Source: Psammoneis japonica
Lineage: Eukaryota
Length of the DNA: 64,000 bases
Direction: 5' to 3'
Assembly: GCA_008632985.1 (NCBI GenBank)
Contig: QPGO01000047.1
Location: 186,001 to 250,000, forward strand
Shown here: positions 17,490 to 44,649 of the stretch, piece after piece
Numbering within the stretch: position 1 is the stretch's first letter
How the letters are laid out: every line of letters begins with the position of its first letter
The notes under the pieces: model-generated
Told to the model about the DNA's origin: nothing
Seen by the model: the letters and a program-made list of their open reading frames with translations, nothing else
Database searches by the model: none
Made by a program: the position numbers and the translations under genes

Positions 17490-18479
17490 TCACACACACT
17501 GCACCCAACAACTAACCCAATTCACCGCATGATTCGGATCGGGACACAAGGAACGTCCCCGACTCTTGATGTCTTGCTCACCCGTGCTCGCACCCAGATC
17601 AAAAGCTCCTCCACGAGTTTTGAACTCTCGTCCACCAATGTTCTGGATGCAAAACAATTTTGGCGTCTGAAACGGCATCGTCTCGCATTTTTCATGCAGA
17701 GCACGAGCCTGAGTTTGAACAAGTGTGACAAAGCTGTTTGTAGATTCTTGAATTGTCGTCGTCATGCATTCTTTCCAAATGCGAGCCTGAATTCGTGCCT
17801 TCATGATGAAGGTCTTCAACGAGTTGTTGATGATCTTGTGCAAGCTCGAAGCGGTTTCACAAACAGTCTTGGTGGTCTTCAAAGAGAGCTCTTGGAATGT
17901 TGTGTGCAACTTCGACGTGGTCTCAATGGCACAGTTTGACAAAATCTTGTTGCAAGTGTCGGAAAACGTCGGGATGGTCATCATTGCGGCGGGCGCGTGC
18001 TCTCGAAGGATTTTTTGAAAACGGCCGGACAAATCAATTTCGTGCTCAAAGGACAAGTCAAAGGAGGACTGGCAGACAGAGCTCGTGGCTTTCAGAGCTT
18101 CAACTGGCATGTCGTCCGCAGGGGTGCAGTTGCGAGTGGCATTGTGAAGAAGGGTGGAGTTGCAGTCCTTGTGGTCAAAAGACACACAATGGATGCTCAA
18201 CCTGATTTGAGCTTCAATGGGCATGCTCGCAGGTGTTTTGTTGCAGAGGATGTTCTGGAGGTGGACAAAGGAGTCGTCATGGCTTTCGATCATCGCAAAC
18301 ATCGTGGTCGTAGCCAAAGCAATGCGAAGCATGTCTTGGCTTGCTTTTGCAGCAATCAATGCATGCTGCACTGTCACATCAAAGACAGCTGAGAGCGGGC
18401 CAGCAAAGGGACCAGCGCTCATGGCACCGGCAGCAATGCCAAGGGAGATGACAGCAAGATTCTTCATGGAAGCAATCAT
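17490..18479 (-). pseudogene. 329-codon tyrosine-free ORF within a TpA-depleted island; probably a mutated gene or element copy
   Basis: No Tyr in 329 aa, enriched in Cys/His; TA nearly absent while CpG is retained. Confidence 0.45.
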
Positions 18480-18870
18480 GGTGATGTCTTGACTGTGTCA
18501 CTTTCCTGTTCAAAGAAAAGATTGTGAGAGAATCGAGAGCAGAAACTGAGGCATCCATCGACAGGAAGCATCAACGTCAAGCACCAGACATGCAGATTTC
18601 TGCATGAAACACACCAAAAACACAACTCCCCCGCATCAATTGTGTCACCCAAGAGAGGCGAAGATGGTGTTGTCACCTTTTACAACATTCAACATTGGTC
18701 TGGACATGAGGTGTGATTCTCCTGAAATGAACTGGGACTGCAGAACAACGGCAGGTTTTGGTGTTTTGCTTTCAGCCGATGTTGTGATGAGGTTAGGGAG
18801 ATTTGGAAGTGACAGCGATTTAGCTCGTGTTTTCTTCGGCAGTGACATCATTTCTTGACACAGCCCCTTT
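17530..18870. other. TpA-depleted tract 1 (CpG retained)
   Basis: Only a handful of TA dinucleotides in about 1.3 kb; the flanking genes have normal TA content. Confidence 0.85.
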
Positions 18871-20478: not shown

Positions 20479-21286
20479 GGTCGTGACACGCATTCCGCTT
20501 TCTGAGTCTCTCGCCCACTCGCGCTCTATCGGTAAGAGCGCGAGTGCGAGTGGCGAGAGCACTCGTGTCCTGCCTTCGTCCGTCGGCAGCACTTTTTTTC
20601 ACTACAATTCTACGTGATTTTGGAATTTCAATGTAGATATAAGAATCTGTATTGGTACACATTTCAACAAAGTTGATTTGCTTCTCGCCATGATGACAAT
20701 TGAGACCGAATGCAGCGCGATTGATTTTCTTCTCGTCATGATGACAGCCCGACCGTGACTTCGCTTTGCCTTTTGGGGTCTGCAGCCACTGCACCGTTCG
20801 TGACGGGCCACAAGCTGGATGAAGTGTGCTGTAGCGGCGCCGCCACCACAACAGCATCACATCTCCAACAAACCTTGGTGCCAAACATGACGCTGCATCC
20901 ATCCAAGGAACACCCACACGTCGCAAGCAACAAGCGTTCTTCTTCAAGTTCATTGGCATTACAAGCAAAGCAAGAAAGCACCATGTCTGCAACAACAACA
21001 CTCAACACTGCCGAGTGAATGACACAAAATCAAGTCGAGTTGTTTGCCAAGTTCAGAACTCAATTTTGTCTGCCAACTCAATGGATTTGCGGATGATGTC
21101 TGGCGGAGGCCTCTCGTCACGGTCCAAGCTGTGTCGTCGTGATCCTACCCAAAAGTCACGATTTTGTCCGGATCTTGTTTCCAATGCTTTCCAGCACGTC
21201 TGCTGCCGTGATCCTGCCGGCACGAGGCAGCTTGTGCTCCAGTGTCGCTTTTTTCGGCACCCATTTGCCATTCCACCCATGCGAAC

Positions 21287-21830
21287 TTGTCAAGCTCATT
21301 GTTCGTGAACAGTTGGAAGACCTCAAGACTCGTCATTACAAGATCTTGCAGCTGCTGATGGGCACTCTTCACATGCTCAGTTCCCCAGCGCTGATTTTTG
21401 CGAGAAGGTCCTCGATGTTGCCACGGACGTTGCTGATTTTTGTGTCGACGCTCAATCGCGAGGTTGCGGCCGAGACTGCTCAAGAGCAGGACTCTGTCGC
21501 ACCATGGCGGAAGCCAAGAGCATGGCCTGCCAGAACATGCTGATTTGGGCCGTTCACAGATGCGCTGTGCGATTTCCCAATTTTGCCGAGTCGGTTGTTT
21601 TTGCTCTCATGGACTTTTTGGCTGCGGATGGTTCCACGCAGGTTGCTCTTTTTGTCAGAGCCATTGTCGAACAGCACATCGCACTGCGAGGATCCATCTC
21701 GCCCAAGTTGTTGGGTTTCATCAATGACAGTTCTTCGAGCAATGTAGTGTGTGTTTGTCTCTGGATCTTGGGTGAATGCTTGGATGCTGTGCAGAGGAAA
21801 TTGATGTGGAGGCCTTTGAAACTGTTTCCG
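21287..21830 (+). pseudogene. COPB1: Decayed fragment of coatomer beta (COPB1), copy 1
   Basis: VKLIVREQLEDLK..., AVHRCAVRFPNFAESVVFALMDFL, FVRAIVEQ, CLWILGEC; frameshifted. Confidence 0.75.
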
Positions 21831-23229
21831 GAAAGAAGCATGTTTTTTTTTTTAATTGCTTGACACATCCGTCGGCTTGGGATGCGTTGACACTGCCGTG
21901 TGGCTTCTGATGCATTGGAAGGCTCTGCCATCGTTGTTTTCGGTGGATCCTGCAAACTGCTGAGGCAAGTGGTGTCTTCGCAATGCCAACAAAATCATGG
22001 GAACCGCACTGATCGGTTCCCGTCATTGAGTGTGATCAGGTCAATGTTGTCGCTGCGTTGTCAACCATGGAAGCATTTTGCAGCGAATGTGGTCGAAGCA
22101 GATTTGATTTATTTGCAACAGAAGCAGACCGGGGCTCCTCCCTTTGGCCAACTGGGCTTGCTCTTCGACCCATTGCCAAGGAGCCAGGGAAAGTGGACGT
22201 TTTCGCTCCACTTCTAGCTTGCCTTGATCGTGTCAGGGAAGTGCGAAAGTTGCAATGGATCATGCCAAGGGGGAATTCGGGCGACTCATTGCGTCTGGGA
22301 AAGGTGTGGAGGAGATTGAAGGAGAAGTTGACCGTGGAAGGGAGGAAGTGCTCAAGTTGGCGGGACCCGAAGCGCCTGTTGGCATGGGAACGCGAGAAAG
22401 AGTTCTGATGTCTTTCGACATTTCTGACTTTAATTTGTTGACGGATGGTTGGTGTGGCAAACTGCGGTTCAACACGGTGGCTCAGCGATGAGATTCGAAT
22501 CTGATTCGCTTGGCCTTTGCACTTGCCATGAAGCATGACGACAACGTAGAGGAAGGAGATGATTTCTTTTTCGATTGGAAAGCCAGCACGGACATTGTTG
22601 GTCAGGAGAGCCCTTTGCCCTCTTGGCATTCGTACATTTCTGCATTGGCAGGCCCTCCAATGCACTTTGGACAGAGACGTCTCCTCATGGCGGACATGCT
22701 CGATGCAGAAAAAAGCATGTCCATCTGCCGTGCACACTCATTCCAAGAAGCATCAGAACAGAAGGCGGAGGATGCATGCTTGGCGACATCTGTTCAAGGA
22801 TCTTCGCCCCATTGGCCTGCCGCAGCAAAGGAGAAGACACAAAGCAGGCCCAAACAGTGACAGAAAAGACCCACGACCTTGCTCGCTGGGCAATGGATCA
22901 ACCAGAAACTGCTGCAATTCTCGCTTCAAAGGCGATTCGTGCAAAGTGCATTGAAAATGTCCTTCTTGATGCCTCGAGTTTCACAATCAAGTTGCATTCT
23001 TTCCAGCTGCCACACGAAATTTTTCGAGCATTGAGGCTTTTGCTCTCTTGTGGTTTCGATCTGAGGGGACATCTGGGTGGAATGGATCTACTTAGCCTGA
23101 CTGCAACAAGAGCTGCTGCATGGTCAGTTGGTCTTTGTTCTTGACAACTAGCAGCAGAGAGTGGCCACTGTCAATCTGCATTGAACAACAGGCAAGTCCG
23201 CAACTGTCACAGTCTAAAAAGGGTGCCAC

Positions 23230-25230
23230 ACTGGTCCGCCGGTGGTGACGTTCTTGGCCTTCGATCGATTGATTGCGAGTGCAAGCTGTGCCACGAACGA
23301 TGAAAAGTGCGGTTCAAACTAGTTTGCGACGACACGGAGAAGTGTTGGACAAATTTTTGTGTTTGTTTAAAATGTTTGCATTGCACAAGACTCTGCTCAT
23401 CTTGATCGAATGAAAGCAACGATAGATTGCCCAACTGAAATAAAATGGCAAAGTGTCTCCATGCGATTCCGTCTTGAACAGTTTCCTCGGCTTCAATTTT
23501 CCTTTTCCACTTGCCTCTGCTTTCAAAAAGAAGGCGCCTCTTCAGATTTTTGCTTCAGAAACAACTCGTTTTGCATGTCTGTAAAACGAGCATGAGTTTG
23601 AGTGCCACATGGATCTCTTGTTTTTGTTCACATGTTGTTCGAGAACAAAGACATGCTTCGGAATCAGCTTGATGAACATGTGCATCCAATGCAAGCTTGA
23701 ATTCGAGACCCAGCATGATCAATCAAACATTCCTGCACAAAGCACTTCCATGGTCGCACCTCTCATGTTGATGGCAAAGGCCTGCTTTGTCGAAAAAGCG
23801 AGCCAGAAAAACAAGTCACAGCCGCATCCGCATGAAAATGCTCGGCAATCCTCCCCAGTCGAACATCTTGTTGGAATGATCGTCGCAAGATTGCACTGAC
23901 GACATCCCCTCCCCCCATTGAGCACCTTACAATGTGCTGCAATCCGGATCGTCATCAAAGATGTCAATGAAAACCTGAATGTGACCTGAGCCGAGCTGGT
24001 CCATTGGGTGGTCCTCGGTCGTCTGTTTCTCGCGTCCGTCGCCCAATTTCATGTCGTAGAACGGGTCAAGGTCATCGTCAAAACAGACCCTTAAAATCTT
24101 TGCCCTCCATGTCTTGTTTGAATGGCGACAATGCACGCACTGGCTCTTCTTGAATTTGGACGTTGGCTCCTTCCAAGGCTTCTTGACACAGTCGTCGCTG
24201 TGGCCCGACAGATCGTCCTCGGTTGATGGCAAAAACAATCCCGTAACGTGCACGCGAATGAGACAGGCCAGCACCACTGCCAACATGAGACGGAAGAGAA
24301 ATCCCATGAGGCCACTGACATCAAAATTCTTGAAAGCCATGCCGATGTGAAACACGACAACAGCAGTGGTCAAATCGAAGTGCTTCAAGACGGCTGCTGC
24401 GCTCGCAAAGTCGACACGCTTGACACATTCCTTGGACATGCCAACAACGAGTCCCACACACTTCAATGAGATGGTTTTGGACTTGATGGCAATGAAATGG
24501 AGTTGGCTCCAGATGGGAGACCCGATGATGGAGGACCAAATCGATTTGACAGTGACGTTTGGAAACCACTGCTGCTTGATGTGCAAAAAGTCCTCCGTGA
24601 GCCCCAACAACCCCTGGTGCAATCCACAGACAAACGTTGAGAATGTCGTGATGGAAACAACATCGAGATCTTGCAGTGAGGCGCAATGGCCAACCCAAAG
24701 AGCAAAACGAAGCCAATCGCTCGTGCTCTTGCGTTGAGTCACAACTGCAATCAAGTCACAGTGGCTGACATTGATCACGGCGTTCATAAAGAGGACAGAG
24801 GACATCATGGTGATGATGGAGATGCAATGTCTTTGTTGCTTGTACCTTCAAAGAAATTGTGACAGCTTGAATCGATGCCTTTCGAAAGGTGCTCGGACAG
24901 TCTTCAGTGCAAAGACACGTAGAATGTACGAGGAATCCCGGCAAAAAGAAAGTCTTGGCACCGTTTCACCATGCGGCATGCCAATGTCGGGCTGGATAAA
25001 TGCATTGCCTGAAACCGACCTCTAACATCATGGTCACTGCCGGCAAACATGTTGGTGTTGCGATCAATTCGCGGTTGCTTTTTTGACGCTTCGATGGATG
25101 TTTGTGTGGGTGGGTCAGGAAAGTTCAACATTTCCTCTCATGTCCTTTCGTCTCCCAAATGTTTCCCATTTAGCAGAGGCAATTGTAAAGCGATGTCTGG
25201 TTTCGTAGGATGAGCTTTTTATTTAGGAAT
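23230..25230. repeat. TpA-stripped copy of the segment at about 47750-49760 (same orientation)
   Basis: Colinear alignment over about 2 kb, including flanks. Confidence 0.95.
23927..24808 (-). pseudogene. Hypermutated paralog of ORF 48437..49318; frame still open
   Basis: Same 293-aa length; substitutions dominated by Y>C, Y>H, I>V, I>T. Confidence 0.8.
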
Positions 25231-26239
25231 CTTTCTTCGTGCACACTTCATCACAACCTCCTCCAAGGATCAACTGGCAGACTGTCTGAGGCACTTGAAG
25301 CTTTACGTCCTTTGGTCATGGGTTGGTGAGTGTGAAGGGCAATTCCTCTTCATAAATGACAGCTGCCGGAATCAGCTGAAATCGATCTGATTGGTTGATT
25401 GAACTTACAAGACACAATGAGAGGGAGTGTGAAGATTGTCAAATCGTCATTGCGGTCATTGTGACTCGCCGTTACAAAGACGACTCACGTCAGCAAAAAA
25501 AACGTCACTCGCCTCAAGTGATTCAGAAGAGGGGACGTTGAGAGTCTCCTCTCCTCACAATCTCAATCTAGTCGCTGCAACACTGGCACCTGAGAATCGC
25601 CCCAACACCCTTTGCATCTCATTGCACTCTGTTTCTGACAATGCTCTGGATGTTGTGCTGACACGCTCACTGATGAAAAGAGTCATTTTGCCCTCAAACC
25701 AGTGGTGAGAGCGAGTGTGGGGGGTGATGGTTGACTGGCGCCAGCAATGAAAATTGTGCCAGCAATGGGCACCAGCAACAACTTTCCCTGCCAGTGACAT
25801 GTTGATGGCAACCAGGAACAGCATTGCAGATTTTTCATGCCAGTGGTTTTCTCGTGAGCTGTGTGTGCCTTTTTTAAAACAGCAAGAATGCAGCCAGCAG
25901 CTGCGCCCCAAGTCGCAGTGGCTCCACCTGCTCAGCACCCCCGTGCTGCGGCAAGCACTGCATCCACTGCTGATTGCAACAAGAGCCAATCTGTTGGTTG
26001 ATTGATGAGACCCACCTCAATGTTGATGCGAGTCTGTTCAGAATTTTGTGTTGCAAAATTCATGGAGCCCAAGTTCAGAAGTGTGGCCAGTCACTCTCAC
26101 TGCCCCCGTTCCTTGTCCTCTTTTGGGCATTGTTTGACTGTCACATTCTTGAATGGTGCATTGGCAGGAAGCTGCACATTTGGGCACAATGATCAATCCA
26201 ACAGTGCCCGATGGGAAAATCCAGATCAGCTGTCAATCT

Positions 26240-26930
26240 AAAGAACCTTCCATCCATCGAAGCTTCCTGTTGAGTCACAATGACAGGTGTGCTAGCTGAG
26301 ATTGCTTCCAGTTGGACAAGAATCAAAACATGGATCCACCAACTTTTTGTGCAAGGGACCAATGTTGGCAACTTTCATCTTCCATGCAAAGTGTCCTGCA
26401 GCCACCATGGCGATCACTGACAAAAGGACCAATGGCGCAAGGAAGCAGCAGCAAGGTGATTGGTCTCTGACACTCTCCAACAGTCTTGTGAGTGATGCCA
26501 TCAGCCTCACAATGAACCCAATCAAGAGGGTCAGTCATGGTCCAGAGCACAAAAACCACAATTGTCACAACAAAAAGAGGCAACATTGGCCCCGTCATTT
26601 GTTGTGGTCCAACCCTGCAACACTTGAGTTGAAGGACTTTGAAGGACCTGCATCATCTTGGCAAACAAAGCTCCATGTGCCGTGGTGTGTTGCAGTGCAA
26701 TGAGCCATGGAGTTGCCATGCACGCCTTGTTCAGCTGGGTTTTGTTCCAGCCTGCTCTTTCATCAAAGGAAAAGGCGAACATTGCCAAGGCCACCAGCAA
26801 GGAACCATGAGAGACAAACCCACAGCACAGAGAAGGTGCTCAGATGGCTCTGCTCAATGCTGCCAACAAGCAACAGAGGCTCCACAGTGCCATTTTCTGC
26901 ACAAAAGGAGGCTCGCCTGAAGTGTCACTC
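26240..26930 (-). pseudogene. Decayed class C (7tm_3, GABA-B-like) GPCR fragment
   Basis: FDERAGW...ACMATPWL...GALFAKM and VLWTMTDPLDW...VGEC, spread across frames. Confidence 0.6.
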
Positions 26931-27024
26931 TGTTGGTTGCCTTGTTTTCCAGATGGGCAAAAGGCAGTCAGTGATGGTTGTGTTTCCTTGCCACGGACAA
27001 ACACTCCATGCCATCCATGGGTGC

Positions 27025-28320
27025 CCCGCACTGTGAGAATCCATCTCAACAAAATTGTTGGCTTTTGTTGATGGCATTTCTTCCAGCAATGCAGTGCATG
27101 CTTGCCTCTGGGGATCTTGGGTGAATGCTCAAATGCTGTGCGGAGGAAACCAATGTGGAGGCCTTTGAAACCATTTCTGATTGCTTGGATCCAACACCAT
27201 TCTTTGTGATTGCCAAGGAAGACAATCATGAAGAGAAGCACAAAGAAGGAGAGGTGTCCAAAATTGTTTTGAAGAATGTTGTGTCAGCAAACAGCACCAA
27301 TGCAAGACCCAAACCATCTGCTCCAAACAGCCATTTGTCCGGACAAGTCAGACAATGCTCCTCATCTGCGCAAGATGGTGATCGGCAGCTGTGTCTTCAT
27401 GGGAACCATTCTCCAGCTTCCTGCCTGACCAAGTTGTGTTTGAGGACTGTGGATTTTCTCAAATGGATGTGTTGGTGATTGAGAAAATGATGTCCAATGC
27501 ACTGCTTGTCATGTGCAGTGCAGCAAAAATGGCTGAGGCCAGCATTTCAGCTCAGTGTCCTGCTGTTGCTGATTGTTCAGAACACATTGCACCATTCTGC
27601 TGTGCACTGTTGATGGGCTCCAAGGCTTGCATTTTGCTCAAGGATGCTCTCCGCAACAATGGCAAAGCATGTTTGCCCAGTTTTTTAAGACACTCAGGTG
27701 CAAAGAAACCAAAGATGCTTTGGCTGATGATGAGGATGGTGCAGGCAAATTGGCCATGGCACAGCTTGACGGCTTGATTCACTTTTGTCAGCTGTGTTCC
27801 ATGGCCATGCAGGATGGTGATGTTGACCTTGATGATGTCACCATCCTTGATTGTGACATTGTCTTTAAGATTCTGACAGCCATCAATTGTGCTCCCAACA
27901 CACCAGCCAACTTGATGGTGGAGCTTGCCATGATGGGTGACATGAAGACTGTCAAACACCCACAGTGTCAAAACATTGGCCCTCTTGATCGGATCACGTG
28001 TGCTGTGCTTCCATTGAGGTCTCCTCCACCAAGATGGCTCACAAGGCGACACAAGAGAAGGGATGCATCAGCATCTCAGCGACATTTGCATGGGCATTGT
28101 GGATTGCACTTGCCCACAACTTGTGCAGATGAGGCCTTTTCATCCACCATCAGGGCCAAGTTTGAACAGGAAAACAAGGTGGCTGCATTTCATTCTTGAT
28201 TCCCAACTTCTTGTTGGATTTTGTCAACCACATTGTCAAGTTGATCAACATGCATTGCCCCACTCTTCTTGATGTGTCAAAAATGGGAAGCTTCCCCATG
28301 CCACCAACCTCTGTGCAAGA
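27025..28320 (+). pseudogene. COPB1: Decayed coatomer beta (COPB1), copy 2, C-terminal half
   Basis: AQLDGLIHFCQL, DCDIVFKIL, VELAMMGDMKTVKHPQ, AKFEQENKVA, ATNLCAR. Overlaps copy 1 in sequence (27025-27175 vs 21678-21825). Confidence 0.75.
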
Positions 28321-31300: not shown

Positions 31301-34300
31301 TGGTGGGGGCAATGGCATCAGAAAAAACAGATTGTCAACAGTGTGCTTCAATGCAAGCAAAACTTGAAATGGTGCAGCAAGCAAGACGTTGCTCATTGTT
31401 TGTGACTGGTGTTGTTCATGAACATGCAGAAACTGCTCTGGAAGAGCCCGCAGAAAAGCCAACAGTCAGCCACACTTTTCAAGTTGTGGTTGGATGTTGT
31501 GGCACATTTGCACTTGGTTGCTTGCAGGCTTCAAGCTGGAAACAAGAATCAGAGGCCAGGAGTGATGTTGGATGCACCCACAATGAATGTCATCCATTTT
31601 AGAGCCGTTCTCTTCAATGAAATTCAGTGTTGCCACAACAGAGCCCATTCTTCTCAGGCCCACCACAAACATGCAGCCTGCAGATTTTGGCGCTTGCTGC
31701 AGTGACACGCCACACCTCAAACTGGTTGAATGATCCTCCCGATCACACCATGGTTGGCTGACAATGAATGCATTCTTGATTGAAAACATCAACAGGGCAA
31801 GACTGTCCTTGTCAATGAGGAGCAGCCTTGCCAAGTCTGAGCTTGACAGAGATGGTCCTACAATCCAACAATGCAAGAGCCAAGCTGAGAACATCTTTGG
31901 ATTTCTTTTTGCTTTGTTGTGGCAACACAAGTGCCAACGGCGCACTCAGAAGCAAGTCACCAAGAAGCACAGTTGATCTTTTCAAACCACACGATTCAAA
32001 TGAAATGACAAATTTGGCAATGCCACACTTGTGGCTGAAAATGAGCATCAATGTGCAACAAAATGTCCTTTGAAGCCCAGATGACAGTGACCACCTGCTC
32101 AGCTGGTTTTTGAAAATTGCAACACCTGTGGAAGGCACAATTGCATGTGTGCAAAGTTCGTTGCTTCTTGTCAGTCAACATTTTCACCAAGGAGTTTTCT
32201 GAGGGGCTTGCAGCAAGCTGCTCCCAAAGAGCCAATTTCAACCTCCAAGACTGGCTCAATTGATGTTCCAAGTTTTGCAGCACTGTCACCTGCTGAGCAG
32301 AAAATGGAGCTGCTTGATTTGCTCCAACAAGCAGAGAGTGCTTTTGCGCTTGCCATTGATGTGCAAGCAACAACGGTCAATGGAGGTGTTTGTCCTGTGC
32401 TGTTTTGAGTCTCTCTCTCTCTCTCTCTCTTGGGCAGAAGATGGTGCATTCACAAGGGCTGCAGAGTTTCTCTGTTTTGTGCAAAAGACCACACAAAGGC
32501 CTGTTCCAGCTCCAGGTGATGCACGCAGGCTCAATTCCCATCACTGGCCCATTTTTGCATTTGGCGCAATGAACTCCTTCAAAATCGGTTTTTTCCAAAA
32601 TTGAATGGCGAGTGTGAGTGTGCACAAAACTGTTGTTTTTTGTGCACACTTGCCTTTCAATTTTCAAAACAATTGAATTTGAGGAATTTAATGTGCTGAA
32701 CTGCACAGAAAACCAGCCTCTTGTTTGATGAATTGCTCATCACCTGGGGCTGGAACAGGCCCACAGACAACAAGGTGCAGCAGCATGCATGCTTTGCTGC
32801 AAGCTTCACCATGACTGTCAAACACACAAAAATGACAGTTGTCAAAGATTGTTGTTGAGGAGCAGTGTGCGCACAACCTCTTGTTTCTCATTCTCCACCA
32901 CCAACAACCCCACGCAGCAGATGCTCCCCACTCTCAACATCTTCATCATTGACAAATGCAAGAGTTCTCACCTGCCTGCATCTCCTTCTCTGTGATTGGA
33001 TTTTTCCATGTGCAGCACATTTCCCATTGCTTGATCAGCTTCTGTTGTCATGGTGGTGCAGAAAGTGATGCATGATGCCATGTGTGACATGTGTGGTGGA
33101 TGCTGGGCTGAACCCGACAATGCCAGATGGGTGAATCAAGTCCAAAATGATGTCGTTCATGCTGAAAGTGTCAAGCCAGGGAAAATTAAATTGAGCCATG
33201 ATGTCCATTGCGCGGACCTTTCCAACTTGGAAGCCATTGACTGATTCTTCATTTGAGCACCAACCACAAGAGGCATGGTCAAGCTTCGAGACTGACAACG
33301 CGGTGCACTGATTTCTGAATTCCAAAGCACCTGCTCTCTGACAACAACTCCACCAGAACATGCCATTTGGGTTGCACACAGTTTTGTTGGCATCACTGTT
33401 TGCAACAAAACTCTGCCACATGTTGTTGTCATGGTGGGTGTGATGCGTGATGCATGAGATGCAGTGGATGATGTGGCACCCACTGAACCCGACAAGGCCA
33501 GATGGATGATTCAAGTCCAACCAATCAACTCAAATCAATTGTGACATCAGCTCGTGCTGAAAAACTTGGCAGGTGCAACCCAACCTTGACGTCCATTGTG
33601 TGGGCCTTTCCTGCTCCAGCAACAAAACAGCCCCAACACTGTGCAAGCTCACGCTTTTCATCCTTGCTTGCCCATCAACATGGAAAGCAACACAAGTTTG
33701 TTCTCACTTCTTGTTTGACAGGTGCTTTGTGAAGCAGGGGGGAAGTCAGTGCTGACCAGTTGCTCTTTTGTCTGTGATTGCATGGAAAGCCAATGGCTGT
33801 GCAAACACTCAACACTGGCACGGCGGGCTGGCGGTTGACGCTGGTGCTTTCTAAAAAGAATGTGTTGGACTGGGATGAGGAGTTTCTGCTTTTGATGCTC
33901 GTTGGGTGTGGCCCACCTGCGCAAATGTAACGTTCTTCTTGTGCATCAATTGATGAATTGATCCAGAATCCTTGAGTCAGGGCTGGGTTGAAAAATGACT
34001 TGCAGCTCCCTGCCCCCCCCCCCCCAACTTTTGCAGCCAAACACCTTGCCAAACCTTTGTGTTTGGACCATCAGAGATGGACATCTCAACCTGTCTGTTC
34101 TTTGTGTTTTTTGCTTGTTTTGCCCTGTCATGCAACAAAAAAAAACTCACAAACTTGTTGTCTCCTTGTGTCTCTCAACAGATTGTCGCATGCAATGGTG
34201 ATGCAGAAGAAGAAGCTCATTGGATGGAGATGCTTTTGAGAACTCGGGAATTGCACTTTTGGACCAAGCTTGCACTTGCATGGATTGGTCTCTTGGAGGA

Positions 34301-37300
34301 ATTGAAGGCTTGTTTGACAGAGTGGGAAACAGTCAAGTTGACACAAAAACAAGCTCTGGCACTTTTCATGGATGCTGTCAAGACACGATTGCATGGGTGA
34401 GGGCCACAAGCAGAAGAATCCCGCCTTGCACTCTGGAAAGTTGAGTCCAGAAATGAAAGCCTGTGTGGATGCCATTGTGAAGGCGATGGGCAAGTCACAG
34501 AACTGTCCAGTTGTCAGTGCCTCTCTGAAAGAGACTGTCACTTGTGGCTTTCATGGAAGCAAGAAGAGTGCACTCTTTGAGATTGAAAGTAAATTGGGTG
34601 TGGACGTGACGAAAGAATCCAAAAACAAGGCTGAGTGAAAAATTCTTTTTCGACCTGGCACTTTGTTTGTGATTCTTTTTTTTTGCAAACACAACAATCC
34701 CGAGTGCAGAAAGTGGAAGTTTGTTTCAGTGCAAGAGATTCATCAATTTTGGTGGAAATTGTCAGAGATGAGTGGAGCTTTAGATTTGCAAGATGAGTGG
34801 CAACTGCAGAGAACTTCCTGCTCCCTCCATCCGGAGGTGAGGTTGTGGGGGGGCATGTGGCAAAGACGGGTGTGCCCATTCCTGTCACAGTGTGTGCTGT
34901 TCTTGGCTGAGCAAGTGCATTGGATGCATTCTTGGAAGCAAGCATTTGCAAAGAAATGCCATCCATTGTTTTCATGCATGTTCTCTTTGTTGCATTCCAC
35001 AGCTTCATGCCCACCTGCTCCTCCCGTGTCTGGCCAGGTGGGGATGATGTGGGGTGTCCCCTGCATTGAAATTGCTTGCATTCAACTGGAGGTCTGCCAC
35101 AATGTCTGCAGCCACGGATTTTGATTGACAGAGTTTTGGGAAAATCTCTCACTCTGTCAGAAGCAGCCACAAGAGTTGCATCCACTCTGGCAGCCACAGC
35201 AAAATGCGTGCTTTTCCTTGGGACGGGCCATCAGGGCTGAATTTTGGAAAGTCTCGATGACACAAGTCCAGCAGAAAGCAACTGTGTCTTCCATCTTTGT
35301 GCAATTGTGCGATTGGCTCCAATGCATTTTTGCACTCCTGCTGCAATGCAATGACCATTTGACTGGCAACTCTGCACATGCAATCGTCTTGCTGCAATCT
35401 AAACCTGTTGAGCATTTCTCCAAAAAAAAAAAACAGCACCATCTTCTTTTGCTGCACTTGTGGCAACTAAAATGTTGCACATGATTGTGATTGCCATGTT
35501 GCAAAAATGGCACTCCTCCAGAAAACTGCTGTCTTTTGCAACACACATGATGTGAAGTGGTCGTGTGACACCCATGTGAGGAACAAGGCTTCTTTCCTGC
35601 AATTGCACTGCATCACGTCCTTGGCATTGTTGTGCTGCAAATGGTTGGGATCGCTTCACATTCCACCACCAGTGTGTGATCTTGAGTGCACTTGTAACTC
35701 TCAGGTAGAATTGCATGCACCAAAGTGCTGTTGTCAGTCCATGTGGCCATGCACTGGTCAAAGATTCATGCATGAACACAGATTGAAGATTTGATGATGA
35801 CACCACAATGACTTTTGAGAGAAGCACTTGTGTTGGGCCCTGTGAGGACTTTTTGCAAGAACCAGCATGGTGCAATCACCACCTTTGTAAAAATGTGCAG
35901 GACATGTGCCAAGAAACTCCAACTTTGCTTTTTGGTTGCTCTGGTTGCAATCAAAACAGCACCAAAAGACAAAAGCAATTCAACACAAAAACTTGCAGAT
36001 CACACTCCAAAATGCATGATGGATTTTTGGGAGAAAAAACTGGGTTGAAATTGATGCATCAGCCTTGTCAATCACAAAGCAAAGTGCACTTAATTGTCCA
36101 TTCGCAACCAAGGCACAACTCATGCAGGAATGTGCAGAAAATGCACTGGGCTCCTCATTCTGCACTTTTTCAATGATCTGGATGTGATCAAGTGCTGCTG
36201 AAAAATCAAAGACTGACATCATGACATTTTCTTGCCAAATGGCTCAAAATCTGCTCGCCAATCTGCTTCTGCTCACCTGAAAACTGCTCATTTGCAAGAA
36301 AACGAGCTCCCAGTGCAAGAAAATCTTGGTGGTCGTGCAAGCTGTTGCACGAGCATGACCCTGTGCAGAACAAGTTGTTTGTGCTTTCCCTCATTCTTTG
36401 GAGCAACATGCAGACTGCATGGAGATTGCCTGCACCGGCAGAAAGCCAGCAGAAGCAAGTGAAAAATCCACTTCATTTTTCTCGCAACATGGCCAAAATC
36501 TGCTTTGCTCACCCAACATGATGTGCCAGTTTTTGAGTTTTTTGGTGGCACTTGATGCAATTGAAATGGTGCCAAAATGCCCAGACCAATTGACCACCGA
36601 CATCACTTTTGCGGAAAATGGCAAACCACATGACAGAGCTTTGGGAGAAAAAACTGGGTTGAAATTGATGGCTGTGTTGAACTTGTCAAACAGAACACAA
36701 AGCACACTGTTTTGCCCAAAAAGCACACTTGCAATTGAAAAGCACACTTGAGACTGAATGCTCCCACACACAGAAATCCACACAGTCATCTGGCACATTG
36801 GAAAAGGTGCACTTGAATTGCACTTGAGCACACTTGTTTGTCTTTCCTCCATTTTTAAAATGGAGTTTCGTGCAACTGCTTCTGTGCTCCAGAGGAAAAG
36901 GCTTGCACTTTGGCATGTGCGCATGGCAGCGCTTGTTGCAGCGATGCAGATGCTGATCCAGCTCTTGCTGGAGGCCCATCCAACCAGCAGCAGCACATGT
37001 TCAACAAGATTTGTGTCGACAAGGCTGACAAGGCAGTTTTTTGATCAAATCTTTCGCCACCACGGGCAAAAGCTCATTTTCATTTTGAGCATTTGCGCCA
37101 TTCCACAGCAGAGCAGCTGTCACAAACAAGGATGAAATGGTGAAAGGGTGCTGTTTGCCATGACATGTGGCGATGCTTCATCGCAGCAATCTCTCAGAAA
37201 AAATGAGAAATGAGGGCCCTGCTTGTGTGTGCACAGTGCGAGCAAGACAGGGTGCAATGGCGCACACCATCCACACCCACAACAAAGAAAGACAAGTGGT

Positions 37301-38349
37301 CAATGCTCCCCACAAGCCTGGTCTGTCCAATTTTTTCCATTTTCTGTCCATGTGCAATTGCACGTGCCCTTGACAAAAAATCTTGCAGTTTGATTTCCAG
37401 ACTTGATTTGTTGCATTTTCAAAATTCTCAGCATTCTCACTGCCAACACCAATCAATCAAGTTGCCACAAAAACAAAAAACAAAAGCAATGGAACAAGAA
37501 CAAAACAAACTGCCAGAATTGCCATTTTGTTGACTCGACACCTGGGTGATCCTTTGAAGGATTCATGTTGTTGTCTGGCAATCACAAGGGCCAGCATGTT
37601 GCTTGTTGCACTGGTTCATCAATGTCTTGCTCACGTGCAAGTGTCAATTCAGGCCTTGTTTGCTGCCGGTGATGCTTCTTTTCAACTTGCAGCCCTGGAC
37701 AAAGATGGACACAAAAATCGGATCACACTTTTGGATCATGTGGCACATTGCATTCTTGATCTTCAAGCACAGCATCAGCAAGCAGAAAATGCACAAGAAG
37801 AGTTGCCATCCTTTTTTGCTTCAGCTCAACTCTTGGATCAGTGCATTGCCAAGAGCTGACAAAACAACAGCAACAGCAAGACAACAAGGACCAAGGTTGC
37901 ACCGCATCCTCCACACATTCTACAACGCAGCGATGCATGGTGCAGTGAGTCTCATTTGCATGCAGCAGTGTGTGTTGTGGTTCAACAATGAGCCTGTGTT
38001 GGCATCAGCCAATTGCAGACCAGCTGACAAATTGAGAAAAGATGCCAAGATCTTTGCATGCTTGCATCTTGTGGCTGTGTTGTCAAGGGTCAAAGCACGC
38101 CAGTGCAGTCAATGGTCAGAAGAGTCAAGGGGCAGGCATTGGGAGAAATGAAAAACTTTGGCAACAATGCCTCATCACAAATCTTTGAGCAACAGTTGCA
38201 GCAGCAAGCAGCAGTGCACGAATGATCCGGGTGCAGTTCATGATGCCTTTGATTTTGACCAAGAACCAGAGCACCCCAGAATTTGTGCCCTGAGTTGGAG
38301 GATTGACCCTGAACAGAGCTTGAGTGACTGACAGAGTCGAAGTGATGGG

Positions 38350-40600
38350 CAAATGCAGACAAGCTGCAAGGATGATTCATCTGATGAACCACAAAGCATT
38401 GACTGCACCATGTGCATGCCTGAGAATGTGCTTGCCATGGTGCAAGAAAGAGCAACCATTTGCTTGCTGTTTTGAAATGAGTCCACTGAACAGCAAACTC
38501 AGACAAGCAAGATTGAGCTGTCAGAGCTTGACGTCAAAGCCATCCCCACTTTGTTGGGTTGCATGCTGGTGCTTGGATGCATGTGTGATTCCTTGCATTG
38601 CTTGCTTGTGGTTTCATTGTGAGCAATCATGTTTTGTGTTGGTTTTCTGATCATGTGCGTGCCTCCCCCCATGCAGCTTCTGCACCAGACACCCCTGAGG
38701 ATTGCTGCAAGCCTCTGGGGCATGTGAGCTGCATGAAAACACAAGCAGGGACATGATGCAAATGAACATGGAATTAATTTGTGCACACAAGTTTTGAGGG
38801 AAATCTGTGCGCTGAATCTGAGTCACATTTGGTGCTGACTCAGTCATCTCACAGGGACATCACAGCTGGCTCACTGATGTTGAATGCAGTCTTGAGTCAG
38901 CTTCACAGTGCAGTGTCTCATGGGCCACAATGGCATGTGTGTTGCTTTGGCAGCAGTGCAAAGACAGGTGGGCACCATCTTCTGAACTGGGGTGGTGTCT
39001 GGAGCTGATCTTTGAAGAGGGAGTCCACGATCATCTCAAGCAAAGATGTGCTGCTCTCATGATGGCAATGCTGAACCGTGCATGACAAATCTGCATGCTT
39101 TGGAGCATGGTCTCTGCCACTTGTCAGATGTCTTTCCAGATGTCTGATGCAGATGGCTTTCACCTTGCATGTTGTGCACTTGTGGGCTGCTGTGATGAAT
39201 TGTGTGGGAGCATGCAAGAGCCCTTGTTGCTTCAAAGTTCTGCTTTGCAAACTCTGATGGACATTGGACAGACAATCCTGCAAATTTGATTGGCAGAGTG
39301 GCAAGGACCAGTCTTGGGTCATCACCCCCCACCAGGGTCTCACCTGTGAGTGCTGGCAGGAATTGGCACTTGATCATTTCTTCCACATTGGCAAAAGAGT
39401 CACCACAGGCTTGTGCCACACATTGAGCACATTGCCGCTTGTGTTGCAGAGACTTCTGCAGGCCAGTGCATGCTGTCTGGGGGTGGCCGATCACTGTCTC
39501 AGCAAGTCCCTGGATGACCGAGGTCCACTCCTTGGTTGTCTCTGCCATCCATTCATCAAAGGCTTCTACATTCTCCTGCAAAACCTCCCAGGAGGTGGCC
39601 ACCAGTTTCAGCGGTGAAGCTGAGGTCTCTAAAACATTTCCTTGCACTCTCCAGGTTGCATTCTGGGACAACAAGAATGTTCTTGGAGTTGTCAGCAGGG
39701 CAGCATTCATGCCTTGGCCCTGTGGCTTGCCGTGTCAGGAAGAAGTTCTGCAGGTCTCGTGAAATGTTCCTGCTGCAGTGGAGCCATTGGCGCGCCATTG
39801 CTGGCTGGTGGTGAGTTGTCAAGAAGTGTCCACGTGTTGACAACGTTGCCACTGCTTTCTGTTGAGGAACCTTGTGCATTGACGCTCATGCTGCACGTGT
39901 TGTTGCAGCTCCTTCTTTGCATCTTGCCATGCTTTGCCCCCACTTGCACACTGTCTTTCTGCAGCACTGCTCTTCTGTTGTGCAGAGGGTCTCTGTCTCA
40001 TCCCCTTGGGCCTTCCCTGAGATGAGCACCTGGAGACAAGAGCATTGATTCTGCAGCACAATGGCCACGGCAATCCAACAATGAGGCCAAGTCACAGACA
40101 CGGCATTGAGAAGAGTTCACATCAAACATGGTGACTTGGAGCCACATTGTCTGAAGCTCAACAAGCTCTCAAGAGCTTTGGTCTGTTGTCATGTGTTTTT
40201 GCCAGAGAGTTTGCACCACCCCAATGCCTCCACACAGTGATGTGGATTTGGAGGACAAACAATGCACAATGGCAGCTCTGAAGTTGTGGATTGTTCCTTT
40301 TGCCTGTGAGCAGGCAATTTGCAGTCTGAAAGCTTTTGTGGCTCGTTTGCTTTGTTTGTTGGCTGGCGCCACAACAATGGTGCCAGAAACTGTGCATTGC
40401 ACCACTCTGCAAATCCACTGCACTCTCAGTTTGTGGAGTGCAAAAATTTAACTGCATTTGCCTTGTTCCATCACAAGTGACGAAACTCATGAGCCATTTT
40501 GGCTCATTTTGACTGTTCAACCCAGTCAAACAACCTGCTGTGTGGCCCTGCCTGTGAGGAACTTGTTGCATTTCTCTGTTCAGCTCATCTCATCATTCTT
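38350..40600 (-). mobile_element. Decayed non-LTR retrotransposon (RT C-terminal region plus probable RLE endonuclease region)
   Basis: SKNILVVPECNLE...GGHLLGGFAG, PQTACTGLQKSLQH, FLPAL...LATLPIKFAGL, ILRGVW; many frameshifts. Confidence 0.7.
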
Positions 40601-41510
40601 TCACTGTGGACCAGTGGGGTTCTTGCTGCACTTTCTGTTTCTGCCATTTGTGGTGCTGTGTGGTGGAAATGTGCACAGGAGGATCTGGCTGGCACCACAA
40701 TTTCTTTAAAAAAGGTGTGCCACACAATGTGTTTCTGTGCTTGCCCACATTTCTGGCACATGATGGGCTTGACAAAAGACAATCAACATGAGCTCAGCAT
40801 CAACAGCAGCACACACTGGGATCCAGCGCACACCTGCTTTTGCATGGCCACATCCATGCTCACAACAAGCCATGTGCAGGGGTCATCATAATTCTGAAAA
40901 TGGAATTTTGAAGTGTTCATGCACAAAAGCATGTCACTCACACAAAAGTTGTCAGGCAAAGTGTCAATGGTTTCAGGGGAAAATGATTCCTTGAGGCCTC
41001 GGCCAAGCGGAGAAGCACGGCAGAAGCACGAGAAAAAAATCGGCCCAAACCCTGATTTTTGTGTTTTTTCTGCATAAATTTCTACATGATTTTTGTGCCA
41101 GTGCACATGGCTTGTGCCAATGCAACCAGAGACCAGTTTTTGTGAGCCTCCTTGTGCTGTCTCAGAGGCAGGTTGAGTGGAATGGCTGAGAGTGAGCGTG
41201 CAAACACTTCGCTGAAGCTCCTCTTTTTGTGCGACACTGTCTGAAATCTTGGCATGTCTTTTGTGCAACTTCTCACCTTTTTAGCTGGGCCTGAGTGGCT
41301 CCATCTGCTGGGTCATCATCTGGCTTCATTGGAGGTTCCAACTCAAGATCAGATGAGTGTGCCCTGAAGTCACCTGAGTCAGTGTGCTCCCATCCCCATG
41401 CAGCTGGCACACACAGTGCAGCACCGTAGTAGTTTCATCGCGGCGTCTGTCGTCCATACCGCGCCACAAAAGATGCCGGCAAGAGAGATAATAAGAGAAA
41501 ACGATGATGG

Positions 41511-44382: not shown

Positions 44383-44649
44383 TCATCCCGACTCCTTCTG
44401 ATAGGCGGCTCCCATTAGCGCCAACAACCCAACTTGAGGACCGTTACCATATACAATTGTAGCAGTGTGCTTTTGCAAGATGGGACCAAGACGTTGCACC
44501 CCCTCGGCAATGTTCTTTGTCTTGCGCTGTACCGACACCGAGAGTGGCTCTCCACGGTTTAGCAAGGCATTTTCACCGAGCACCACAACAATATGCTGCT
44601 TCTTATTCGTGTTGGCGGGATGGGAAGGAGACAAATGCATTTTCTTCAA
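44383..44649 (-). pseudogene. Truncated carbamate kinase copy (first about 88 codons)
   Basis: Near-identical to 685-942 but ALGGN>VLGEN, HGNG>YGNG, a 2-codon insertion and a stop at the duplication breakpoint. Confidence 0.9.

What the first reader, a model, noticed from the sequence alone, without database searches (positions are those of the whole stretch)
20670..41420. Region-targeted TpA>TpG/CpA hypermutation: a candidate RIP-like genome-defence system of opposite polarity
Seen: over about 20 kb, and in three other tracts, TA is almost eliminated (about 30 by eye in 25.7-41.3 kb, versus many per kb in the neighbouring genes) while TG/CA dominate. The tracts contain only decayed duplicates and TE remains. 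Established: fungal RIP creates TA (CA>TA) and 5mC decay removes CG; neither removes TA. Inference: an A:T>G:C process specific to TpA acts near saturation on silenced or duplicated DNA. Candidate mechanisms are a TadA/ADAT-like DNA adenine deaminase (TadA prefers a 5' T/U), error-prone Pol-eta-type synthesis (WA>WG signature) recruited to methylated chromatin, or a mutagenic modified T or A. I know of no description of this in diatoms but cannot verify novelty.
Basis: partly seen in the sequence, partly recalled or inferred. Interest (0 to 1): 0.95.

Follow-up and report, generated by a model that had tools for sequence, protein, structure and literature searches.

The report
TA-erasing hypermutation tracts in a diatom
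Four blocks of non-genic DNA in this diatom-like genome have had nearly every TA dinucleotide changed to TG or CA, which is the footprint of a targeted mutation process reported only once before, in an unrelated alga.

Summary
Four tracts (17513-18681, 20656-41282, 49919-54122, 61473-64000) hold 101 TA where 1152 are expected. TG and CA are 1.5-1.9 times expectation and the edges are sharp to within tens of bases.

Three duplicates whose other copy lies in normal DNA, plus a coatomer-beta pseudogene compared with diatom proteins, show the direction. TA became TG or CA: 69 of 101 sites in the main pair, and 0 of 11 conserved tyrosines kept. A>G is 0.38 per A at TpA against 0.04-0.06 in other contexts.

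TG and CA outcomes are interleaved. Two tract copies were hit independently after they duplicated, so the change happened in place, on both strands. CpG decay is a second, separable process.

Contigs of a public run match 7 kb of the tract exactly. That run may be the assembly's own source.

The residual TA density needs continuing removal at roughly 80 times the background rate.

The kind is not wholly new. A 2026 preprint shows TpA-only A:T>G:C hypermutation of integrated viruses in Bigelowiella natans. I found no report in diatoms. Here the identifiable targets are host duplicates and the tracts are saturated. The enzyme is unknown; adenine deamination is the leading guess.

The parts
17513..18681 (.). 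Tract 1: TA-depleted island of 1.17 kb between two genes
   Evidence: 3 TA (obs/exp 0.039), CG obs/exp 0.76. Edges.
20656..25875 (.). Tract 2a: TA-depleted with CG largely kept, so the younger or unmethylated part
   Evidence: 41 TA (0.122), CG 0.76, GC 0.493 against 0.474 outside. It starts about 60 bp from the RRP36 ORF end at 20598.
25876..41282 (.). Tract 2b (core): TA and CG both nearly gone
   Evidence: 33 TA (0.031), CG 0.208, TG 1.88, CA 1.84. X1 contigs match 7,009 bp of it exactly.
49919..54122 (.). Tract 3
   Evidence: 12 TA (0.042), CG 0.47. There is no TA for 1265 bp after 49919.
61473..64000 (.). Tract 4, which runs off the window end
   Evidence: 11 TA (0.075), CG 0.64, GC 0.516.
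23264..25247 (.). Hypermutated copy of a 2-kb element, inside tract 2a
   Evidence: 83% identical to 47769-49772. TA fate. Its 306-codon frame is 85% identical, with Tyr changed to Cys or His.
47769..49772 (.). Unmutated copy of the same 2-kb element in normal DNA, used as the reference state
   Evidence: TA obs/exp 0.50-0.62 and CG about 1.0-1.1. It has many near-copies among X1 contigs (summed word depth 739-1054 in its bins).
21072..21788 (+). Coatomer-beta pseudogene fragment A (residues 232-487 of a diatom homologue)
   Evidence: tblastn with P0001; Adaptin_N E 7e-10. Conserved Tyr kept 0/5, Arg kept 8/11.
27013..28294 (+). Coatomer-beta pseudogene fragment B (residues 447-909)
   Evidence: tblastn; Coatamer_beta_C E 7e-7. 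Conserved Tyr kept 0/6, Arg kept 1/9.
50412..50534 (+). Decayed copy, in tract 3, of the DNA at 45400-45528 (start of the TTL-family gene)
   Evidence: 79% identity. In alignment A3, 0 of 7 reference TA are kept: 5 became TG, 1 became TT and 1 lies in a deletion (read by eye).
44387..45315 (-). Control: duplicate of 1-941 (95% identical, inverted), both copies in normal DNA and not hypermutated
   Evidence: 27 of 33 TA-involving columns keep TA in both copies.

Best explanation
SHOWN. The tracts are ordinary diatom DNA: host pseudogenes, duplicated fragments and unidentifiable sequence. A mutation process rewrote them where they lie. It converts the palindromic dinucleotide TpA to TpG or CpA, a transition at either base pair, and leaves other contexts at background rates. 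It hits both strands about equally and without strand runs. It stops within tens of bases of neighbouring genes. It acted after the duplications. A second process, CpG to TpG/CpA decay of the kind caused by cytosine methylation, overlaps it but has a different extent.

INFERRED. Removal of TpA is continuing or recurrent, at roughly 40-90 times the background substitution rate per TA. It is directed at a chromatin or silencing state rather than at sequence homology. It is the same kind of process as the TpA-only hypermutation seen in real time in Bigelowiella natans.

MY GUESS AT THE CHEMISTRY. Enzymatic deamination of adenine to hypoxanthine in DNA, at A preceded by T, by a TadA/ADAT2-like or other deaminase (about 0.4). 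A mutagenic modification of T at TpA is next (about 0.2).
For: - Direction and context. In the main pair, 101 reference TA became TG 37 and CA 32, with 16 kept; every other dinucleotide is kept at 65-79%. A>G per A is 0.383 at TpA against 0.039-0.064 elsewhere.
- Within the shared 306-codon frame, TA falls from 35 to 6, and TA-type changes are 29 of 76 differences.
- Outgroup polarity. 0 of 11 Tyr conserved in at least 70% of 60 diatom coatomer-beta proteins are kept (5 Cys, 2 His, 2 Arg, 2 other). Overall retention is 84/175 and 129/276.
- Third mini-pair: 0 of 7 TA kept.
- In place and after duplication. The two pseudogene copies show 6 TG-against-CA discordant dinucleotides in 149 aligned bp, against 0.71 expected; 0 of 2000 shuffles reach 6.
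- No strand runs: 39 runs against 30.4 expected. TG and CA counts are near equal in most 1-kb bins.
- Sufficiency. Converting 97% of TA and 80% of CG to TG/CA in the window's non-tract DNA reproduces the core profile: CA 1.88 against 1.84, TG 1.84 against 1.88, GC 0.468 against 0.475. Where CG is kept, GC rises as predicted (0.493 and 0.516 against 0.474).
- Continuing. The core's TA frequency of 0.0021 would be regenerated by only about 1.1-1.2% neutral divergence. At steady state it needs removal at 81-95 times background. The young pair independently gives 39-79 times.
- Flank preference. Among surviving TA, TAT is 0.23 and TAA 2.10 times the average. ATAC is 0/224 and TTAA 19/46 (chi-square 83.7, p 5e-18).
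- Real sequence. Six X1 contigs (7,009 bp) match the tract with no difference.
- Precedent. In B. natans, 230 of 231 de novo mutations in two integrated viral regions are A>G or T>C, all at TpA. The genome has 124 clusters depleted in TpA and enriched in CpA+TpG (abstract, Results and Discussion read).
Against: - No enzyme, modification or chromatin state can be examined, because no genome is held and the window encodes no candidate.
- X1 comes from one sample and one study and may be the assembly's source, so platform independence is not shown.
- All polarised comparisons rest on three duplicates and one pseudogene in a single 64-kb window.
- The steady-state argument assumes roughly context-free background rates.
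- Unlike in B. natans, no viral or transposon domain was found: 0 of 293 ORFs. So sameness of kind rests on the mutation signature alone.
- In 489 kb of other diatom-like metagenome loci no such tract occurs. The process may therefore be confined to a lineage, or repeats may simply be missing from such contigs.
- The multi-copy element at 47769-49772 lies 150 bp from tract 3 and is unmutated. I cannot explain what exempts it.
Confidence: 0.85

Rival explanations
1. By-product of an epigenetic thymine modification. A TET/JBP-type hydroxylase marks T at TpA in silent DNA (5-hydroxymethyluracil or a base-J-like base). The modified or further oxidised base mispairs with G, so TA decays to CA/TG much as methylated CG decays to TG/CA.
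For: TpA is a palindrome, as expected for a mark kept on both strands. The loss is symmetric, limited to domains, and lies beside methylation-type CpG decay. In dinoflagellates 5hmU replaces T preferentially in TA and TC and sits on transposons (PMC11572971, Discussion passage).
Against: TC is not depleted: 121 of 165 kept, like other dinucleotides. No mutagenic outcome of 5hmU was reported in the passages I read. No such enzyme or base is known to me in diatoms, and the 'hydroxymethyluracil' plus 'diatom' search found none. From recall, 5hmU pairs well with A.
Confidence: 0.2
2. Error-prone repair synthesis. Repeated patch repair in methylated DNA by a Pol-eta-type polymerase writes G opposite T at WA motifs, as in the second phase of antibody hypermutation.
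For: A>G at TA is part of the WA>WG signature (recalled). The tracts also carry CpG decay, which would supply T:G mismatches.
Against: ApA is not raised: 14/330 = 0.042 against 0.039-0.064 for CpA and GpA. TA loss is near complete in tracts 1 and 2a, where CG is still at 0.76, so it does not follow CpG decay.
Confidence: 0.05
3. Editing outside the chromosome. The sequences were hyper-edited as RNA or cDNA (ADAR-like) and then integrated, so the sharp edges are insertion junctions.
For: The edges are sharp to within tens of bases. ADAR favours a U before the edited A (stated in the preprint's Discussion).
Against: Editing of one strand gives one outcome per copy. Here TG and CA alternate within each copy (39 runs against 30.4 expected). 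Two adjacent copies differ by independent hits. The 20.6-kb tract is a mosaic of pieces with different CpG decay.
Confidence: 0.03
4. Sequencing, base-calling or assembly artefact at modified TpA sites.
For: Only one sample and study holds the sequence, and it may be the assembly's source. The platform is not on record.
Against: Exact contigs of 848-1611 bp cover 7,009 bp of the tract with no difference. A base that reads wrongly on each strand would give all-CA and all-TG read families, not one sequence with interleaved outcomes. The tracts also carry indels and transversions relative to their duplicates. Protein-level decay is consistent with real age.
Confidence: 0.03
5. Selection against TA, or foreign DNA that was TA-free on arrival.
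For: TA is mildly under-represented everywhere (0.58 in non-tract DNA).
Against: The tracts hold pseudogenes and copies of the host's own TA-containing sequences, and their TA sites are specifically converted. No known constraint takes TA to 0.03 in decayed DNA.
Confidence: 0.02

Closest known systems
TpA-targeted local hypermutation in Bigelowiella natans (Mettrop et al., bioRxiv 10.64898/2026.01.13.699255; abstract, Results and Discussion read)
   Same: Only TpA is hit, giving TpG or CpA. The effect is confined to blocks, with the rest of the genome normal. The long-term footprint is TpA depletion with CpA+TpG gain in clusters of kilobases. Many affected sequences cannot be annotated.
   Different: A different supergroup branch (rhizarian against diatom-like stramenopile). 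There the proven targets are a single-copy integrated giant virus and a virophage that still hold 3.3% and 9.2% TpA. Here the identifiable targets are host duplicates, and TA is down to 0.2% of dinucleotides. Here it is overlaid by CpG decay. Real-time mutation was shown there, whereas here there is only the footprint. The preprint does not mention diatoms. Its supplementary tables could not be opened, so flanking preferences cannot be compared.
Repeat-induced point mutation (RIP) of Neurospora and other fungi (features recalled; named as the comparison in the preprint's Discussion)
   Same: Near-saturating transitions at one dinucleotide, on both strands, in delimited blocks of non-genic or duplicated DNA.
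   Different: RIP is C>T, mostly at CpA. It creates TpA and stop codons and lowers GC. Here A:T>G:C destroys TpA, removes TAA and TAG, and raises GC unless CpG decay offsets it. RIP is triggered by homology, whereas a 95%-identical 941-bp pair here is untouched.
Methylation-driven CpG decay
   Same: A palindromic dinucleotide is lost to TG/CA inside silent domains by a continuing process. It is present in these very tracts.
   Different: It acts on CG, not TA, and its extent differs: CG obs/exp is 0.76 in tracts 1 and 2a, where TA is already 0.04-0.12.
Adenosine deaminases acting on polynucleotides (TadA/ADAT2-3, ADAR; DNA editing by amphioxus and trypanosome ADAT2 as cited in the preprint)
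   Same: A becomes I, which is read as G, with a preference for a preceding U or T.
   Different: Their known natural substrates are tRNA, double-stranded RNA or, rarely, DNA in special settings. None is known to clear TpA from chromosomal blocks. No enzyme could be examined here.
5-hydroxymethyluracil in dinoflagellate DNA (PMC11572971, passages)
   Same: A modification in another alveolate-stramenopile-rhizarian alga that prefers T in TpA and lies on transposons.
   Different: It also prefers TpC, which is unaffected here. No mutational footprint was reported in the passages read.

Membership tests
TpA-targeted local hypermutation (Bigelowiella natans type) | Excess mutations are A>G/T>C and fall on TpA | tested here: met
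   A>G is 64/167 at TpA against 42/877 in the other three contexts. 69 of 101 reference TA became TG or CA.
TpA-targeted local hypermutation (Bigelowiella natans type) | [quoted passage not shown] | tested here: met
   In 15 consecutive 1-kb bins (26001-41000) TA is 0.01-0.07 and TG and CA are each 1.61-2.05. My obs/exp is computed per dinucleotide, not on the pooled CpA+TpG.
TpA-targeted local hypermutation (Bigelowiella natans type) | Confined to blocks, with neighbouring DNA normal | tested here: met
   TA spacing jumps from 10-30 bp to over 170 bp at 17513, 20656, 49919 and 61473.
TpA-targeted local hypermutation (Bigelowiella natans type) | Targets are integrated viral or other foreign sequences | tested here: not met
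   0 of 143 ORFs of 90 aa or more and 0 of 150 ORFs of 55-89 aa have a virus or transposon Pfam domain; I scanned 150 of the 203 shorter ORFs. Two viral-contig scans found nothing. What can be identified is host coatomer-beta and host duplicates. Decay may hide foreign origin.
TpA-targeted local hypermutation (Bigelowiella natans type) | De novo mutations seen in real time at about 1000 times the background rate | not testable with these tools
   This needs mutation-accumulation lines or strain resequencing. The footprint implies about 40-95 times background per TA, averaged over time.
Repeat-induced point mutation (RIP) | C>T transitions (CpA>TpA) with TpA gain and GC loss (recalled definition) | tested here: not met
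   Opposite polarity. TA is lost. C>T at CpA is 11/266, which is background. GC is unchanged or raised.
Repeat-induced point mutation (RIP) | Every duplicate of a few hundred bp or more with high identity is mutated (recalled definition) | tested here: not met
   The pair 1-941 / 44387-45315 (95% identical) keeps TA in 27 of 33 TA-involving columns. The multi-copy element at 47769-49772 has normal TA.
Methylation-driven CpG decay | CG lost to TG/CA in the same blocks | tested here: met
   CG obs/exp is 0.21-0.76 in the tracts against 1.00 outside. C>T at CpG is 26/220 against 39/638 in other contexts. This explains the CG loss only, not the TA loss.
Pol-eta type WA>WG hypermutation | A>G raised at ApA as well as TpA (recalled definition) | tested here: not met
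   ApA 14/330 = 0.042, which is no higher than CpA (0.064) or GpA (0.039).
RNA or cDNA hyper-editing before integration (ADAR or APOBEC style) | One strand polarity of changes within a copy | tested here: not met
   TG and CA outcomes are interleaved (34 TG, 30 CA; 39 runs against 30.4 expected).
ADAT2/TadA-like DNA adenine deaminase system | A deaminase with the HxE-PCxxC motif that acts on DNA and is present in the organism | not testable with these tools
   No genome is held. Only the preference for a preceding T is consistent with it.

The most novel reading that the evidence does not exclude
Diatoms and chlorarachniophytes share an old, chromatin-directed DNA-editing immunity. It continuously deaminates adenine at TpA in any block the cell has marked as silent, whether virus, transposon or the cell's own redundant duplicates. 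It erases all tyrosine codons and two of the three stop codons and leaves TA-free DNA as a permanent scar. Its domain is set independently of CpG methylation, and it prefers ATA/TAT over TTAA. If so, TA-free tracts would be a genome-wide map of what the cell treats as non-self. The responsible enzyme would be a natural, programmable adenine editor of double-stranded DNA.
Probability: 0.3. Interest if true: 0.92.

Novelty: new member of a known kind. Interest (0 to 1): 0.78.

Why it matters
Local hypermutation that removes TpA has one precedent, a 2026 preprint on a rhizarian alga, and its mechanism is unknown.

A second case in a diatom-like genome shows the process is not a curiosity of one species. 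It is far more saturated, and the identifiable targets are the host's own sequences.

The case also argues that targeting follows a silencing state rather than viral origin. It places the question in a group where gene knock-outs, methylomes and chromatin maps are routine.

It adds features that any mechanism must explain:
- strict TpA specificity with an ATA/TAT preference over TTAA;
- equal action on both strands;
- edges within tens of bases of active genes;
- independence from CpG decay;
- continuing activity at roughly 80 times the background rate.

A practical consequence is that TA-free DNA lacks TAA and TAG. Such tracts give long false reading frames (5.0 against 3.0 ORFs of 90 aa or more per kb) and will mislead gene prediction.

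Tried and rejected
- Whole genome: none is held. Genome-wide TA/CG scans and a search for deaminase, TET/JBP or polymerase genes were therefore impossible.
- Homologue searches. The 208-aa coatomer fragment and the 306-aa frame of the 2-kb element found nothing. The library-wide HMMER search with the frame at 29769-30521 gave one repetitive, spurious hit.
- Metagenome scan with the 306-aa frame: nothing.
- Viral-contig scans with the frames at 48437-49318 and 17514-18497: nothing.
- Pfam on tract ORFs. The only hits at or above Pfam's own cut-offs are the two coatomer-beta domains; three weaker hits fall below them. The 53 shorter ORFs of tracts 3-4 were not scanned.
- tblastn of 83 non-tract ORFs against the tracts: only the known 2-kb pair.
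- tRNA and Rfam scans of the window: none.
- Expression. No RNA holder is listed. Run X2, which carries a spliced joint, shows next to no cover over 34.6-41.3 kb. The tool warns that missing cover is no evidence, so I draw nothing about silence from it.
- Strand runs of TG/CA outcomes, as expected for processive single-strand editing or a read-strand artefact: not found.
- Earlier notes of this scan: none for this genome or sequence. The word search gave only phage cases.
- Literature. Searches found nothing on TA-depleted tracts in diatoms. A 2025 diatom transposon preprint (10.1101/2025.10.24.684338) has 0 occurrences of RIP, hypermut-, dinucleotide or TpA.
- Leads not tested: diatom DNMT4 related to fungal RID (PMC9998398 passages) and stramenopile-only deaminase-SAM-Tudor proteins (PMC3239186 passages).

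Full report
WHAT IS THERE

A per-kilobase dinucleotide table of the window shows that TA obs/exp drops from 0.42-0.84 in genic DNA to much lower values in four blocks:
- 0.01-0.07 in every bin from 26 to 41 kb;
- 0.07-0.18 from 21 to 26 kb;
- 0.00-0.09 from 50 to 54 kb;
- 0.07-0.08 from 62 to 64 kb;
- 0.14-0.24 at 17-19 kb.

The list of TA-free gaps and the positions around each edge put the tracts at 17513-18681, 20656-41282, 49919-54122 and 61473 to the window end.

Together they cover 28,528 bp and hold 101 TA where the non-tract frequency predicts 1152. The longest TA-free run is 1393 bp, log10 P about -24. TG and CA rise to 1.7-1.9 times expectation.

CG is also low, but unevenly: 0.21 in 25876-41282, 0.47 in tract 3, 0.64 in tract 4 and 0.76 in tracts 1 and 2a.

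The edges are abrupt. TA spacing changes from 10-30 bp to more than 170 bp at single positions, about 60 bp from the RRP36 frame and about 230 bp from the next gene.

As an outside control I fetched 80 diatom-like coatomer-beta loci from metagenomes (489,158 bp, of which 24 loci of 6 kb or more total 307,537 bp). None has a 1-kb window with TA obs/exp below 0.15 or a TA-free run over 501 bp.

WHOSE DNA IS IT

No whole genome is held. The flanks carry ordinary eukaryotic genes in long open frames: amino-acid kinase, homoserine O-succinyltransferase, P450, RRP36, a TTL family member, CAF1 and an amino-acid transporter.

A coatomer-beta fragment inside the tract finds 99 proteins. Every hit that carries an organism name is a diatom, among them Triceratium, Odontella, Eucampia, Attheya, Cyclotella, Thalassiosira and Skeletonema. 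I therefore call the organism diatom-like and go no further.

DIRECTION OF CHANGE

A self-comparison found a 2-kb element present twice: once in tract 2a (23264-25247) and once in normal DNA (47769-49772).

- Taking the normal copy as reference, 101 TA became TG 37 times and CA 32 times and stayed TA 16 times. All fifteen other dinucleotides are kept at 65-79%.
- Per adenine, folded over both strands, A>G is 64/167 at TpA against 14/330, 17/264 and 11/283 after A, C and G.
- In the shared 306-codon frame, TA falls from 35 to 6. TA-type changes are 29 of 76 differences, against 33 other non-CpG substitutions.
- The two translations are 247/292 identical, with Tyr replaced by Cys or His.

A second, independent polarisation uses diatom proteins as the outgroup. 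tblastn maps two coatomer-beta pseudogene fragments at 21072-21788 and 27013-28294. At positions conserved in at least 70% of 60 homologues, 0 of 11 Tyr are kept (5 Cys, 2 His, 2 Arg, 2 other), against 84/175 and 129/276 for all residues. Arg is kept 8/11 in fragment A but 1/9 in fragment B, which matches the CpG difference.

A third small pair is 45400-45528 in normal DNA against 50412-50534 in tract 3. It keeps 0 of 7 TA: 5 became TG, 1 became TT and 1 lies in a deletion (read off the alignment by eye).

A control pair lying wholly in normal DNA (1-941 and 44387-45315, 95% identical) keeps TA in 27 of 33 TA-involving columns.

WHERE AND WHEN IT HAPPENED

TG and CA outcomes alternate along the copy: 39 runs against 30.4 expected. 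The two dinucleotides are near equal in most 1-kb bins. This excludes editing of a single RNA or cDNA strand. It also excludes an artefact in which each read strand miscalls in one direction.

The two coatomer fragments overlap by about 150 bp of homologous sequence. There they differ by 6 TG-against-CA dinucleotides in 149 bp, against 0.71 expected; 0 of 2000 shuffles reach 6. One further site is TA in one copy and CA in the other. So the hits are independent, came after the duplication, and happened in place.

IS THE SIMPLE MODEL ENOUGH

I converted 97% of TA and 80% of CG to TG/CA in the window's own non-tract DNA. This reproduces the core's full dinucleotide profile and its GC content. Where CG is still present, GC is higher (0.493 and 0.516 against 0.474), as TA>TG/CA alone predicts. 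Two separable processes therefore suffice.

ONGOING OR A PAST BURST

From the core's dinucleotide frequencies, ordinary mutation would create TA at 0.17-0.20 per dinucleotide position per unit of neutral divergence. The observed 0.0021 would be regenerated by only about 1.1-1.2% divergence. Yet the same DNA has lost 80% of its CG and half of its conserved coatomer residues.

At steady state, removal must run at 81-95 times the background rate. The young pair independently gives 39-79 times. I infer continuing or recurrent activity. This rests on roughly context-free background rates.

FLANKING PREFERENCE

Surviving TA are not random. Relative survival is 0.23 for TAT, 0.72 for TAC, 1.38 for TAG and 2.10 for TAA. 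ATAC is 0/224, ATAG 1/166, ATAT 1/117 and TTAA 19/46 (chi-square 83.7, p 5e-18).

The young pair points the same way: TAC 20/39, TAT 25/63, TAA 11/36, TAG 8/29.

IS THE SEQUENCE REAL

One sample of one study holds the stretch. Six contigs of run X1 (848-1611 bp, 7,009 bp in all) match the tract with no other letters or gaps. Two further contigs match the normal DNA with 0 and 3 differences.

X1 may be the data the window was assembled from, and its platform is not on record, so independence is not shown. The interleaved outcomes, and the real indels and transversions relative to the duplicates, still argue against any artefact I can think of.

WHAT THE TRACTS CONTAIN

Everything identifiable is a decayed copy of host sequence: coatomer-beta twice, the 2-kb element, and the TTL-gene start.

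No transposon or virus domain was found in 143 frames of 90 aa or more, or in 150 of the 203 frames of 55-89 aa. Two viral-contig scans found nothing.

Many X1 contigs at 85-95% likeness lie on parts of the tract and on the unmutated element, so some of this DNA is multi-copy.

COMPARISON WITH WHAT IS KNOWN

Five searches on diatoms, TpA, RIP and hypermutation found nothing relevant. A phrase search then found a preprint, 10.64898/2026.01.13.699255. I read its abstract, Results and Discussion.

In mutation-accumulation lines of Bigelowiella natans, two integrated viral regions mutate at about 6e-7 per site per generation, against 3.5e-10 elsewhere. Of the 231 mutations there, 230 are A>G or T>C, and all of those lie on TpA. 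This was seen in 11 of 15 lines.

That genome holds 124 clusters depleted in TpA and enriched in CpA+TpG, and 324 low-TpA coding sequences enriched in transposon domains. The authors propose an ADAT2-like DNA adenine deaminase from prediction only.

The preprint does not mention diatoms or stramenopiles, and a follow-up search found no other paper.

The signature in this window meets that description on three tested features. It fails one, foreign origin of the targets, and one is untestable, real-time mutation.

It is not RIP: the polarity is opposite and a high-identity duplicate is spared. It is not the Pol-eta WA signature, because ApA is not raised. CpG decay explains only the CG part.

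MECHANISM

Shown: the signature, its symmetry, its confinement, and its order relative to duplication.

Inferred: continuing activity, and targeting by a silencing state rather than by homology or CpG methylation. TA loss is complete next to the RRP36 gene, where CG is kept.

Guessed: the chemistry.
- Adenine deamination fits the preceding-T rule and the precedent.
- A mutagenic thymine modification at TpA, as 5hmU in dinoflagellates prefers TA and TC, is the main rival. However, TC is untouched here.
- Stramenopile-only deaminase-SAM-Tudor proteins and diatom DNMT4 are leads I could not test.

CONSEQUENCE FOR CODING SEQUENCE

Unlike RIP, this process cannot create in-frame stop codons, and it removes TAA and TAG. 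It disables proteins by replacing every Tyr and some Ile, Leu and Val codons. It also leaves long false frames: 5.0 against 3.0 per kb.

VERDICT

The kind is known from one recent preprint in another lineage. This is a new and more extreme member of it, with host duplicates as its visible targets.

Noticed in passing
window 1-941 and 44387-45315: An inverted duplicate of about 940 bp at 95% identity, with both copies in normal, gene-bearing DNA. It shows no TA loss. It served as my control, but its origin and the genes it overlaps were not studied.
   Followed up: partly
window 21072-21788 and 27013-28294: The two coatomer-beta pseudogene fragments lie in the same orientation 5.2 kb apart and overlap by about 40 codons (residues 447-487). 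This looks like one pseudogene split by inserted DNA with a local duplication, or like two partial copies. Arg/CpG decay differs sharply between them (8/11 against 1/9 Arg kept).
   Followed up: partly
window 47769-49772: The unmutated 2-kb element carries a 293-codon ATG frame (48437-49318, minus strand) with no Pfam family and no database relative. X1 contigs pile up on it (summed word depth 739-1054), so it is multi-copy. It sits only about 150 bp from tract 3 yet keeps normal TA and CG.
   Followed up: partly
window 43691-43800: Run X2, labelled 'DNA?', has a contig that skips 108 bases with ends CT..AC, which is GT..AG on the minus strand. This looks like a spliced intron, so X2 is probably transcript data.
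   Followed up: no
window 41522-42587: An X2 contig and an X1 contig cover the GCK-domain gene with dozens of differences, and 58 letters replace 18 at 41634-41653. This could be a diverged allele or a paralogue.
   Followed up: no
window 17514-18497 (minus strand): A 328-codon open frame spans almost all of tract 1. In TA-free DNA only TGA can stop a frame, but a frame this long still suggests a recently disabled gene. It has no Pfam hit and no viral relative.
   Followed up: partly
window 58810-58982: A tandem direct repeat of about 88 bp at 83% identity in normal DNA, just downstream of the 3' end of the minus-strand amino-acid transporter ORF (59114-60853).
   Followed up: no
all four tracts: The tracts give more long stop-to-stop frames than genic DNA (143 of 90 aa or more in 28.5 kb, against 107 in 35.5 kb), because TAA and TAG are almost absent. 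Gene finders will over-call here.
   Followed up: yes
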